64,000 nucleotides of DNA from a virus (Duplodnaviria; Heunggongvirae; Uroviricota; Caudoviricetes). Below are positions 49,205 to 50,678 of this stretch, piece after piece. Every line of letters starts with the position of its first letter. Within the stretch, counting starts at the first letter, position 1. Location of the stretch: IMG/VR virus record IMGVR_UViG_3300030379_000158; one strand, 5' to 3'. A program made the translations under genes and the position numbers. Below the pieces are notes generated by a model. It was not told the DNA's origin and did no database searches. It saw only the letters and a program-made list of their open reading frames with translations.

Positions 49205-49440
49205 TCAACTTATCCACAGCATAGATCCAATAAACAGATCCTAAAGAGAACCTAGGAAGATCCAAAGAAGATCCCGGATCGCTGTAAGCCGCGTCATTAC
49301 TGGCCTGAAATGGGATCAACATTGACTATACGCGATTTTATGTTGACTGTGCACGATTTATTGTTGACTGCACGCGATTTATTGTTGACTATACGCGACA
49401 GAAACATTGACTGTAAGCGATTTTAGAGTCTGAATATTCA
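49205..49440. other. Plasmid replication origin: DnaA box TTATCCACA, cluster of five GATC sites, then incC-type iterons
   Basis: TTATCCACA at about 49210; GATC x5 within about 49224-49285; four to five TTGACTRYRCGCGA repeats at about 49318-49437. Confidence 0.7.
49318..49437. repeat. Origin iterons (about 19-bp units, ATTGTTGACTATACGCGA-like), direct repeats
   Basis: Five tandem copies read in sequence upstream of repA. Confidence 0.75.
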
Positions 49441-49501
49441 CAGCTGTTGATAACAGCCATCCAAATTGACGTCAGGCCGCGCCACACATGGAGAAACCGT
49501 G

Positions 49502-50386
49502 ATGCCGGAAGAAAGTAAAGGCTTCCTTAGCGTTGAAGAAGTTGCAGGAAATACAGGAGAAATCCACAGCCTGAAGCCCAATAACAACAGCACTATACAA
49601 CCCATCGCTTTGTTGCGCTTAGGTGTGTTTGTGCCAACCTTAAAATCTACCAATGTGGCGCTACGTCGCGGATCGTCAGTTACAACAAACACAACGAACG
49701 CAACTGAAGAACTATCAAGCCTCAAAATTGTTGAGCAGGAAGGCTATGAGGGAATTGAAATTCATGGTCCACGCCTGGATATGGATACTGATTTTAAGGT
49801 GTGGGTGGGCATAACTTCCGCGTTGTTTGACTACGCACCTGATGATGACGGCATAATCACCCTGCCATTCTCCGAGTTTGCCGATCGATGCGGCTATCCA
49901 CGTAAGCGCCTTTCAAAGGCGTTCCGTAAAAGTATTGATGACTCTCTGACACGCATTCAGCAGACAGTTGTCAAATTCCGCTTCCCGGCGGCAAAAGGTC
50001 ATCTCAATAACATTAACGTCAACTTGTTGGCATATAGCAGCCTGAATACCGAGCTTGATGTTATCGAGATCCAGCCGCAGAAACAGCTATCTGAACTTTA
50101 CTATGTTGACTATAAGCGAATCCTGAAGCTGAAGATGCTGGATAAACTAGGGCGCAAAGAGACGGCCAAGGTACTGTATACATTCTTTGAGGCTCTACCC
50201 GCCAACCCGGCACCTGTCAGCATTGAGCGCCTTAGAGCGAGGCTTAATCTCAAATCATCCGTTAGCGTGCAAAATAGCGTTATCAGAAAAGCCATGAAAG
50301 ATTTGGAAGCTATTGAATATCTTAAATTTTCAGAGATAAAAAACGGCAGGAAAATCGGCTTCCAGATCCATAAGCGCAATCCATAA
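49502..50386 (+). CDS. repA: RepA iteron-binding replication initiator (294 aa), start at MPEESKG with GGAGAAA RBS
   Basis: Internal start of track ORF 49466..50386; flanked by iteron arrays on both sides; homologous to, but as far as I can recall distinct from, P1 RepA. Confidence 0.75.
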   Translation: MPEESKGFLSVEEVAGNTGEIHSLKPNNNSTIQPIALLRLGVFVPTLKSTNVALRRGSSVTTNTTNATEELSSLKIVEQEGYEGIEIHGPRLDMDTDFKVWVGITSALFDYAPDDDGIITLPFSEFADRCGYPRKRLSKAFRKSIDDSLTRIQQTVVKFRFPAAKGHLNNINVNLLAYSSLNTELDVIEIQPQKQLSELYYVDYKRILKLKMLDKLGRKETAKVLYTFFEALPANPAPVSIERLRARLNLKSSVSVQNSVIRKAMKDLEAIEYLKFSEIKNGRKIGFQIHKRNP

Positions 50387-50389
50387 TAT

Positions 50390-50662
50390 TGACTATATGC
50401 GATAGCGAGAAGTTGACTATAGGCGACATTCGTTGACGCTGGTGGATTTTTGCTGGCGTCAATATTCTGCAAGTCGCTATTGAGATGGCTTTTAGGGGCA
50501 TTTCATCGCGTATAGTCAACGTTTCTCCCGACAATATCTTACATAGTCGATCTTTGGTGGAGTTAAATCGACTACAGTCAACTTTTGACTGTAGTCACAT
50601 CGCGCATAGTCAACTATTCACATTAACCTTCGCGCATAGTCAACATTTGCGCGGTTCTCATC
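50390..50662. repeat. incA-type iteron array downstream of repA (copies in both orientations)
   Basis: Repeats TTGACTATATGCGA / TCGCGTATAGTCAAC / TCGCGCATAGTCAAC, about nine copies. Confidence 0.7.
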
Positions 50663-50678
50663 AAGCAGTGGTATTGAT

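What the first reader, a model, noticed from the sequence alone, without database searches (positions are those of the whole stretch)
49205..50670. Replicon appears different from P1 while partition genes look P1-type
The iterons here are TTGACTATACGCGA-like, and RepA aligns only partially with the P1 RepA as I recall it; my memory of the P1 iteron is GATGTGTGCTGGAGGGAAA. ParA, ParB and parS look P1-like. That would make this a replicon swap inside a P1 backbone, which bears on incompatibility. The T5orf172-like gene lies at the junction and may have arrived with the replicon.
Basis: partly seen in the sequence, partly recalled or inferred. Interest (0 to 1): 0.45.

Follow-up and report, generated by a model that had tools for sequence, protein, structure and literature searches.

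The report
Known p0111 replicon in P1-like plasmid

Summary
Window 49205-50670 has an iteron origin, repA and a second iteron array. The iterons (TTGACTATACGCGA core) are unrelated to the P1/P7 iteron GATGTGTGCTGGAGGGAAA. RepA is a full-length homologue of P1 RepA at only 42% identity. ParA (397/398 aa), ParB (333/333 aa) and the parS boxes are P1's, not P7's.

Against P1, homology decays across the left part of oriR, disappears at 49305 and returns sharply at 51555. This defines a 2.25-kb cassette: iterons, repA, control iterons and a T5orf172 gene. It replaces 1.49 kb of P1.

The same junctions occur in all 46-47 other p0111-type loci where they could be read. The cassette is 98.5% identical to pO111_2 (AP010962), the reference for the "p0111" type. 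It occurs in about 400 PLSDB plasmids and 419 of 5,426 complete E. coli genomes. The swap is described for SJ46 and JL22 and in population surveys.

So this is already known. My small additions:
- The T5orf172 gene is found only with this replicon.
- In 44 of 44 close IMG/VR loci the replicon is coupled to P1-type par.
- repA contains a conserved iteron.
- Diverged P1/D6-like elements carry the same replicon type, so it is probably an old allele of the P1-family replicon rather than a foreign graft.

The parts
49167..49304 (+). Left part of the origin. It contains a perfect DnaA box (TTATCCACA, 49210-49218) and AGATCC heptamers with GATC sites. It is still alignable with P1 oriR.
   Evidence: Identity to P1 falls from about 94% in upfA to 72-78% here. 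The DnaA box and six GATC sites lie within 49224-49317, whereas the window density of 253 per 64 kb predicts about 0.4.
49305..51554 (.). The 2,250-bp p0111-type cassette with no nucleotide homology to P1. It replaces P1 62806-61316 (1,491 bp).
   Evidence: blastn and MAFFT identity profile against P1. The junctions are the same (P1 62807/62816 and 61315/61316) in the other p0111-type loci: left junction readable in 47 of 49, right in 46 of 49, and in pMUB-MIN9-2 and pO111_2.
49322..49420 (+). Five direct origin iterons (TTGACTnTnnGCGA core, about 21-nt units). This is the incC equivalent.
   Evidence: Start-to-start spacing is 21, 21, 21, 22, identical to the five P1 incC iterons (annotation).
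49434..49453 (.). Two DnaA-box-like sites, each with one mismatch (ATATTCACA on +, TTATCAACA on -), between the iterons and repA.
   Evidence: P1 also has DnaA boxes on this side of its iterons.
49502..50386 (+). repA, a 294-aa iteron-binding initiator with Rep3 WH1 and WH2 domains.
   Evidence: Pfam Rep3_C 27.3 bits (cut-off 21.1); Rep3_N 22.0 bits (cut-off 22.4). 42% identical to P1 RepA. PHROG 775, E 2.6e-134. 99.3% aa identical to pO111_2 RepA. The same start as RefSeq WP_001113742.
50106..50119 (+). An iteron inside the repA coding sequence.
   Evidence: Zero mismatches to the pattern. GTTGACTATAAGCGAAT is the longest stretch (17 nt) identical in three repA homologues whose synonymous third positions agree only about 50% of the time.
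50389..50643 (.). Downstream iteron array, the incA equivalent. Two strong forward and four strong reverse iterons, plus two or three degenerate copies (50433 +, 50537 -).
   Evidence: P1 incA has three forward and six reverse copies in the same position. The degenerate copies score no higher than background.
50679..51488 (+). T5orf172 (GIY-YIG superfamily) gene, 269 aa, function unknown. It is cargo of the cassette.
   Evidence: Pfam PF10544. PHROG 2876 over its full length and PHROG 681 'endonuclease' for the N-terminal domain. Present in 401 PLSDB plasmids, the same set as the replicon, with no other plasmid homologue at E<=1e-4.
51496..51520 (+). Terminator-like hairpin followed by a T run, after the T5orf172 gene and just inside the right junction.
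51555..51656 (+). P1-type par promoter/operator region; homology to P1 resumes here at P1 61315.
   Evidence: 98-100% identity to P1 from 51555 onward. Ppar and the ParA operator are annotated at P1 61296-61211.
51657..52853 (+). parA, P1 type.
   Evidence: 397/398 aa identical to P1 ParA. Pfam HTH_54 and AAA_31.
52870..53871 (+). parB, P1 type.
   Evidence: 333/333 aa identical to P1 ParB and 43% to P7 ParB.
53876..53958 (+). parS (incB), P1 type.
   Evidence: The box B (TCGCCA) and box A (ATTTCAC) motifs are identical to P1 and differ from P7.

Best explanation
The window is a P1-like phage-plasmid whose plasmid-prophage replicon is the "p0111" type. A fixed 2.25-kb cassette (49305-51554) sits where P1 and P7 carry the IncY iterons, repA and incA. 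The cassette holds five origin iterons, repA, a downstream iteron array and a T5orf172 gene. The left part of the origin, upfA and the whole P1 partition system flank it.

It most likely works as P1 oriR does. RepA monomers bind the five helically phased iterons. Host DnaA binds the flanking boxes. The Dam-methylated GATC heptamers mark the region that opens. The downstream iteron array, and perhaps the iteron inside repA, titrate or handcuff RepA to hold copy number low.

RepA and the iterons have a different specificity from P1/P7. Replication-control incompatibility (incA/incC) with IncY elements should therefore be lost. Partition incompatibility (incB) with P1 should remain, because ParB and parS are identical to P1's.

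Shown here: the sequence anatomy, the homology, the junctions and the distribution. Inferred from P1 biology: the binding, control and incompatibility consequences.
For: Identity of the cassette:
- 98.5% nt identity to pO111_2 (NC_013370 = AP010962) across the cassette and par region.
- RepA 99.3% aa identical to pO111_2 RepA.
- AP010962 is the p0111 reference used in PMC11165635.
- 99.9-97.7% nt identity to phages phi456, SJ46, JL22, RCS47 and Ro157c2YLVW.

P1-like architecture:
- A DnaA box and a GATC cluster.
- Five iterons spaced 21, 21, 21, 22 as in P1.
- RepA with Rep3 winged-helix domains, 42% identical to P1 RepA over its full length.
- A downstream array of forward and then reverse iterons.

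Fixed junctions: left homology ends at P1 62807/62816 in 47 loci and right homology resumes at P1 61315/61316 in 46 loci.

Partition system: ParA 397/398, ParB 333/333 and parS boxes identical to P1.

Literature:
- JL22: 'repA' (p0111) and an unknown gene gp57 replacing repA (IncY)', with 31 IncY and 24 p0111 among 55 P1-like elements (PMC9603915).
- SJ46 RepA is 42% identical to P1 RepA (PMC5241659).
- 132 p0111 against 94 IncY elements, and 17 inferred type switches, in Salmonella (PMC11165635).
Against: No function was tested. The consensus scan found no plus-strand sigma-70 promoter between the iterons and repA, so autoregulation through iteron-promoter overlap is assumed, not seen. Only six of the downstream iterons are strong against nine in P1, and the degenerate copies are not distinguishable from background. 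Rep3_N falls 0.4 bit below Pfam's cut-off. No paper I found reports an experimental compatibility test between p0111 and IncY P1-like elements; PMC11165635 only says they 'can theoretically be compatible'.
Confidence: 0.9

Rival explanations
1. The cassette is a foreign replicon captured from an ordinary, non-phage iteron plasmid such as an IncFIB-like one, and grafted into a P1 backbone.
For: RepA belongs to the large RepFIB/RepB family found on thousands of enterobacterial plasmids at 44-54% identity. That is slightly closer than P1 RepA at 42%. MOB-suite labels the replicon IncHI1B.
Against: Across PLSDB and a 5.8-billion-protein set, every close relative I examined sits in a P1- or D6-like element. 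Below 84% identity there is a gap down to 53%. The cassette reproduces P1's origin layout and iteron spacing and occupies the same locus. A P1-like contig whose backbone is only 68-72% nt identical to P1 carries the same replicon at the same locus (RepA 84% aa, same iterons, a T5orf172 homologue at 44%). Its RepA divergence matches that of its own proteins: ParA 89%, gp23 80%, gp22 82%, ParB 67%. PMC9603915 reports p0111 only in P1-like phage-plasmids.
Confidence: 0.1
2. The apparent swap is an assembly chimera or a one-off rearrangement specific to this sequence, perhaps linked to the IS element 450 bp upstream.
For: An IS629-like element (47447-48756) lies next to the region. Identity to P1 changes from about 100% to about 94% across it.
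Against: The same cassette with the same junctions occurs in 399 PLSDB plasmids, 419 complete E. coli genomes and 44 IMG/VR contigs, almost all without the IS. The IS has intact inverted ends and a clean 3-bp duplication (GTA), so it is a simple insertion. upfA alleles are mosaic among P1, P7 and p0111-type elements and are not linked to replicon type.
Confidence: 0.01
3. The T5orf172 protein is an active homing-type nuclease, or another selfish driver, that spreads the p0111 cassette into IncY P1-like genomes during co-infection. On this view the cassette is not a neutral alternative allele exchanged by ordinary flanking homologous recombination.
For: The gene is strictly linked to the cassette and ends 66 bp from the invariant right junction. 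Its N-terminal T5orf172/GIY-YIG-like domain is well conserved in the 44%-identical homologue. PHROG 681 'endonuclease' matches that domain. Replicon type switched about 17 times on one Salmonella tree (PMC11165635).
Against: No nuclease activity is known for this family member. The gene is split by a frameshift in pO111_2 and interrupted in at least one IMG/VR locus, with the replicon intact. It is absent beside the 85%-identical replicon of D6-like elements. IncY remains about as frequent as p0111. The structure model was too poor to assess an active site.
Confidence: 0.1

Closest known systems
p0111 replicon type of P1-like phage-plasmids (reference pO111_2, AP010962/NC_013370; also phages RCS47, SJ46, JL22, phi456)
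   Same: The cassette is the same at 97.7-100% nt. It has the same junctions with the P1 backbone, the same downstream T5orf172 gene ('gp57' in JL22, PMC9603915) and the same P1-type par genes.
   Different: Nothing of substance differs. This copy has an intact T5orf172 gene, whereas pO111_2's is frameshifted. It also has an IS629-like insertion upstream of upfA, shared with IMG/VR contig L029.
IncY plasmid replicon of phages P1 and P7 (oriR/incC - repA - incA)
   Same: Same genomic position and same layout: DnaA boxes, GATC heptamers, and five iterons spaced 21, 21, 21, 22. Then a Rep3-family RepA of similar length, then an array of forward and reverse iterons. RepA is homologous along its whole length.
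   Different: RepA is only 42% identical. The iteron sequence is unrelated beyond chance. There are 6 strong control iterons against 9 in P1, and an extra iteron inside repA. An 810-bp T5orf172 gene lies between the control array and Ppar, where P1 has 170 bp of non-coding DNA.
RepFIB / 'RepB family' iteron replicons of large enterobacterial plasmids
   Same: RepA is 44-54% identical over its full length, in the same Rep3 winged-helix family.
   Different: No nucleotide similarity. None of them carries the T5orf172 gene. The p0111 type is confined to P1/D6-like elements in what I examined.

Membership tests
p0111 replicon type (PlasmidFinder-style typing against AP010962) | High nucleotide identity of repA and the replicon to the pO111_2 reference | tested here: met
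   98.5% nt over 5.1 kb including the cassette. RepA 99.3% aa identical to NC_013370. AP010962 is named as the p0111 reference in PMC11165635. NC_013370 is described as pO111_2. That NC_013370 and AP010962 are the same record is from my own knowledge.
IncY (P1/P7) replicon | RepA near-identical to P1 RepA, with iterons GATGTGTGCTGGAGGGAAA | tested here: not met
   RepA is 42% identical. There is no megablast match to P1 or P7. Iteron consensus matches at 10/21 positions, which is chance level.
Iteron-controlled Rep3-family replicon (P1 RepA / F RepE / R6K pi class) | Initiator with WH1 and WH2 (Rep3_N and Rep3_C) domains | tested here: met
   Rep3_C 27.3 bits, above the cut-off of 21.1. Rep3_N 22.0 bits, just under the cut-off of 22.4. 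Full-length homology to P1 RepA at E 9e-71. There was no direct PDB sequence hit.
Iteron-controlled Rep3-family replicon (P1 RepA / F RepE / R6K pi class) | Tandem, helically phased direct repeats next to the rep gene, with DnaA box(es) and an AT/GATC-rich region | tested here: met
   Five iterons at 21-22-bp spacing. One perfect and two one-mismatch DnaA boxes, and six GATC sites in 94 bp.
Iteron-controlled Rep3-family replicon (P1 RepA / F RepE / R6K pi class) | RepA binds the iterons, initiates replication, and is controlled by autorepression and handcuffing | not testable with these tools
   Inferred from P1. No repA promoter was recognised by the consensus scan.
P1-type partition system (incB specificity) | ParA and ParB of P1 sequence, and parS with P1 box A and box B motifs | tested here: met
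   ParA 397/398, ParB 333/333. parS boxes identical to P1. ParB is 43% identical to P7's.
T5orf172 / GIY-YIG superfamily | Match to the T5orf172 domain model | tested here: met
   PF10544 at 26.9 bits against a cut-off of 20, residues 8-85.
T5orf172 / GIY-YIG superfamily | Nuclease activity or a homing function | not testable with these tools
   The AF2 model has mean pLDDT 50. There were no significant fold or PDB sequence matches and no PADLOC or NCBIfam hit.

The most novel reading that the evidence does not exclude
IncY and p0111 are two ancient alleles of one P1-family replicon, kept side by side because a different iteron/RepA specificity lets an incoming phage-plasmid escape replication control by a resident relative. 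The strictly linked T5orf172 protein is not passive cargo. It either drives the cassette into IncY genomes as a homing-like nuclease, or acts on the replicon together with the conserved iteron inside repA.
Probability: 0.12. Interest if true: 0.5.

Novelty: already known. Interest (0 to 1): 0.15.

Why it matters
Replicon type decides which P1-like phage-plasmids can share a cell, and it is how surveillance tools type them. These elements carry ESBL, mcr-1 and virulence genes. That P1-like elements come in IncY and p0111 flavours is established, so the finding adds no new biology. Two practical points follow. First, this element should escape incA/incC control by P1 or P7, but it keeps P1's parS/ParB. 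In the 44 close IMG/VR loci I examined, p0111 was always paired with P1-type par. 'Compatible in theory' therefore probably overstates matters for P1 itself. Second, the cassette includes an uncharacterised T5orf172 gene and an iteron inside repA, neither of which appears to have been studied.

Tried and rejected
- T5orf172 structure: AlphaFold2 on a 3-sequence alignment gave mean pLDDT 50. Foldseek against the PDB found nothing significant (best E 0.25). The weak top hits were winged-helix initiators (RctB, RepE, pPS10 RepA), which I treat as noise.
- T5orf172 sequence searches: a profile search of PDB sequences gave no hits. PADLOC and NCBIfam gave no hits. BLASTP against RepA showed no similarity.
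- RepA against PDB sequences: nothing below E 0.39.
- repA promoter: the consensus scan found none on the plus strand between the iterons and repA. By eye, each iteron starts with TTGACT, a 5/6 match to the -35 consensus, but I found no convincing -10.
- Idea that the diverged upfA allele belongs to the cassette: rejected. upfA polymorphisms are mosaic among P1, P7 and three p0111-type elements.
- Idea that the IS629-like element marks the recombination junction: rejected. It has a clean 3-bp target duplication, and almost all other p0111 elements lack it.
- Search for intermediates between the p0111 RepA and other plasmid RepAs: none between 84% and 53% identity.
- Co-residence of IncY and p0111 P1-like plasmids in one genome could not be computed, because the search tools return counts and not intersections.

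Full report
**What is there**

Window 49205-50670 holds a complete iteron replicon.
- After the upfA stop (49166) and a small hairpin comes a perfect DnaA box (TTATCCACA, 49210).
- Six GATC sites follow within 49224-49317, four of them in AGATCC heptamers. The window-wide density (253 sites in 64 kb) predicts about 0.4 sites in that span.
- Five direct iterons start at 49322, 49343, 49364, 49385 and 49407.
- Two DnaA-like boxes, each with one mismatch, lie at 49434 and 49445.
- repA runs from 49502 to 50386 (294 aa). This is the same start as RefSeq WP_001113742.
- One further iteron lies inside repA at 50106.
- Downstream of repA are two forward iterons (50389, 50413) and four reverse iterons (50506, 50568, 50600, 50630), plus two or three degenerate copies.

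Twelve of the thirteen pattern matches in the 64-kb window fall in this 1.3-kb stretch. Shuffles expect about five matches in the whole window. The repeats are therefore real and not chance.

**Comparison with P1 and P7**

The two iteron consensus sequences agree at 10 of 21 positions, which half of all shuffles also reach.

RepA aligns with P1 RepA over 272 residues at 42% identity, E 9e-71. It has Rep3 winged-helix domains.

The P7 replicon is 97.7% identical in nucleotides to P1's. P7 is therefore not a match either, and neither P1 nor P7 appears among the megablast hits of the region.

The architecture, however, copies P1. It has the same order of DnaA boxes, GATC heptamers, five iterons, repA and a forward-then-reverse control array. 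Even the 21, 21, 21, 22 spacing of the origin iterons is the same.

The partition system is exactly P1's. ParA is 397/398 aa identical and ParB 333/333. ParB is 43% identical to P7's. The parS box A and box B motifs are identical to P1's and differ from P7's.

**Breakpoints**

A 50-nt identity profile against P1 gives this picture:

| Window segment | Identity to P1 |
|---|---|
| Up to 47446 | about 100% |
| 47447-48756 | IS629-like insertion |
| upfA | about 94% |
| Left part of oriR, 49162-49304 | 72-78% |
| 49305-51554 | no real homology |
| From 51555 (P1 61315, just upstream of Ppar) | abrupt return to 98-100% |

The replaced P1 segment is 62806-61316 (1,491 bp). The incoming segment is 2,250 bp.

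The T5orf172 gene (50679-51488; Pfam PF10544) and a terminator-like hairpin (51496) lie inside the cassette. The gene ends 66 bp before the right junction.

The junctions are invariant in the other p0111-type loci I fetched:
- Left homology ends at P1 62807 or 62816 in 47 loci.
- Right homology resumes at P1 61315 or 61316 in 46 loci.
- The insert measures 2,220-2,259 bp in 45 loci and 3,784 bp in one with an insertion.

The same junctions appear in pMUB-MIN9-2 and pO111_2.

**Identity and prior knowledge**

The region is 99.9-97.7% identical to phages phi456, SJ46, JL22, RCS47 and Ro157c2YLVW, and to three records labelled P1.

It occurs in 399 PLSDB plasmids, 232 of them at 99% or more, mostly from E. 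coli with some Salmonella, Shigella and Klebsiella. The cassette is in 419 of 5,426 complete E. coli genomes.

It is 98.5% identical to pO111_2. That plasmid (AP010962) is the reference for the 'p0111' replicon type (PMC11165635).

The swap itself is published:
- JL22 is described as having 'repA' (p0111) and an unknown gene gp57 replacing repA (IncY)', with 31 IncY and 24 p0111 among 55 P1-like elements (PMC9603915).
- SJ46 RepA was reported as 42% identical to P1 RepA (PMC5241659).
- A Salmonella survey found 132 p0111 against 94 IncY elements and inferred 17 switches of type on the tree (PMC11165635).

The finding is therefore correct but already known.

**What I can add**

1. The T5orf172 gene is exclusive to this replicon. 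tblastn finds it in 401 PLSDB plasmids and in no other plasmid, even at E 1e-4. In 5.8 billion proteins it has only one distant relative, at 44% identity.

2. That relative sits on a 95.7-kb P1-like contig (L006) whose backbone is only 68-72% nt identical to P1.
   - The contig has the same locus order: ppfA-like gene, origin, repA, T5orf172, parA, parB, gp23.
   - It has the same iterons and a RepA 84% identical to the window's.
   - That divergence is in line with its ParA (89%), gp23 (80%), gp22 (82%) and ParB (67%).
   - Conversely, Cronobacter phage JK004 carries an IncY-type replicon at 77.7% nt on a backbone about 76% identical.
   - D6-related contigs (L007, L051, L052) carry an 85%-identical RepA with the same 5+1+2+4 iteron layout, but without T5orf172 or par next to it.
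   - Between 84% and 53% identity there are no RepA relatives.
   - Together this favours two old alleles of one P1-family replicon, exchanged by recombination in conserved flanks, over capture of an ordinary plasmid replicon.

3. In 44 of 44 close IMG/VR loci the p0111 cassette is followed by P1-type parA/parB (93-100% nt), never by the P7 type.

4. The iteron inside repA is the longest stretch (17 nt) identical in three homologues whose synonymous third positions agree only about half the time. This suggests selection on the DNA itself.

**How it most likely works**

By homology with P1 (inference, not shown here):
- RepA monomers bind the five origin iterons.
- DnaA binds the flanking boxes, and the methylated GATC heptamers mark the opening region.
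- The downstream array, and perhaps the intragenic iteron, limit copy number by titration or handcuffing.

The changed RepA/iteron specificity should remove incA/incC cross-control with P1 and P7. The identical ParB and parS should retain incB partition incompatibility with P1.

I could not locate the repA promoter by consensus, so autorepression is assumed.

**T5orf172 function**

This remains unresolved. The AF2 model was poor. There were no significant fold or sequence matches and no defence-system match. The gene is frameshifted in pO111_2 and interrupted in one IMG/VR locus, so it is dispensable for maintenance. A homing-like role is possible but unsupported.

**Verdict**

The novelty class is 'already known' and interest is low.

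Noticed in passing
window 47447-48756: An IS629-like (IS3-family) element with terminal repeats TGAACCGCCCCGGG...CCCGGGGCGGTTCA and a 3-bp duplication (GTA). It is inserted in the last codons of the P1 mlp homologue, just upstream of upfA. The identical insertion is in IMG/VR contig L029, which matches all tested modules at 100%.
   Followed up: partly
window 50106-50119: An iteron inside the repA coding sequence. It is conserved to the base in homologues that are 84-85% aa identical (L006, L007), although synonymous sites have otherwise diverged about 50%. P1 repA has no counterpart.
   Followed up: partly
L006 (Logan ERR2144811 contig, 95.7 kb), 6700-8940: A divergent P1-like element (68-72% nt to P1) with a p0111-like replicon: RepA 84% identical, the same iterons, and a T5orf172 homologue at 44% with a 42-residue longer called N-terminus. 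The host is unknown.
   Followed up: partly
L007, L051, L052 (E. coli GCA_013513435 contig and IMG/VR contigs): D6-related elements carry an 85%-identical RepA with the same iteron layout. Here it is flanked by structural genes in the opposite orientation, with no T5orf172 gene and no parAB adjacent.
   Followed up: partly
window 12657-13959: A second region with 64-81% nt similarity to the P1 immI ant/kilA segment. It is in addition to the 96.9%-identical c4-ant-kilA-repL region at 60009-63849.
   Followed up: no
window 50433-50466: An inverted repeat TTGACGC...GCGTCAA made of iteron-like half-sites, between the forward and reverse control iterons. It could be a site for RepA dimers. It scores at background level with the iteron matrix.
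   Followed up: no
L004 (pO111_2) 4678-5487; L033 about 8178-10690: The T5orf172 gene is split into two CDS in the p0111 reference plasmid. In one IMG/VR locus it is interrupted by a roughly 1.5-kb insertion. The replicon is intact in both.
   Followed up: partly
L040 (IMG/VR contig of 103,445 bp, the length of SJ46) and window 51657-53871: PMC5241659 states that SJ46 and RCS47 share ParA and ParB, and cites another study as showing these are identical to P7's and distant from P1's. In L040, parA and parB are 100% nt identical to the window's. The window's ParB equals P1's (333/333) and is 43% identical to P7's. The published statement looks reversed.
   Followed up: partly
window 45000-47446 compared with 48757-56000: Left of the IS the window is about 100% identical to P1 but 96.3% to pMUB-MIN9-2. 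Right of it the window is 99.75% identical to pMUB-MIN9-2. The backbone is therefore a mosaic of P1-like lineages.
   Followed up: partly
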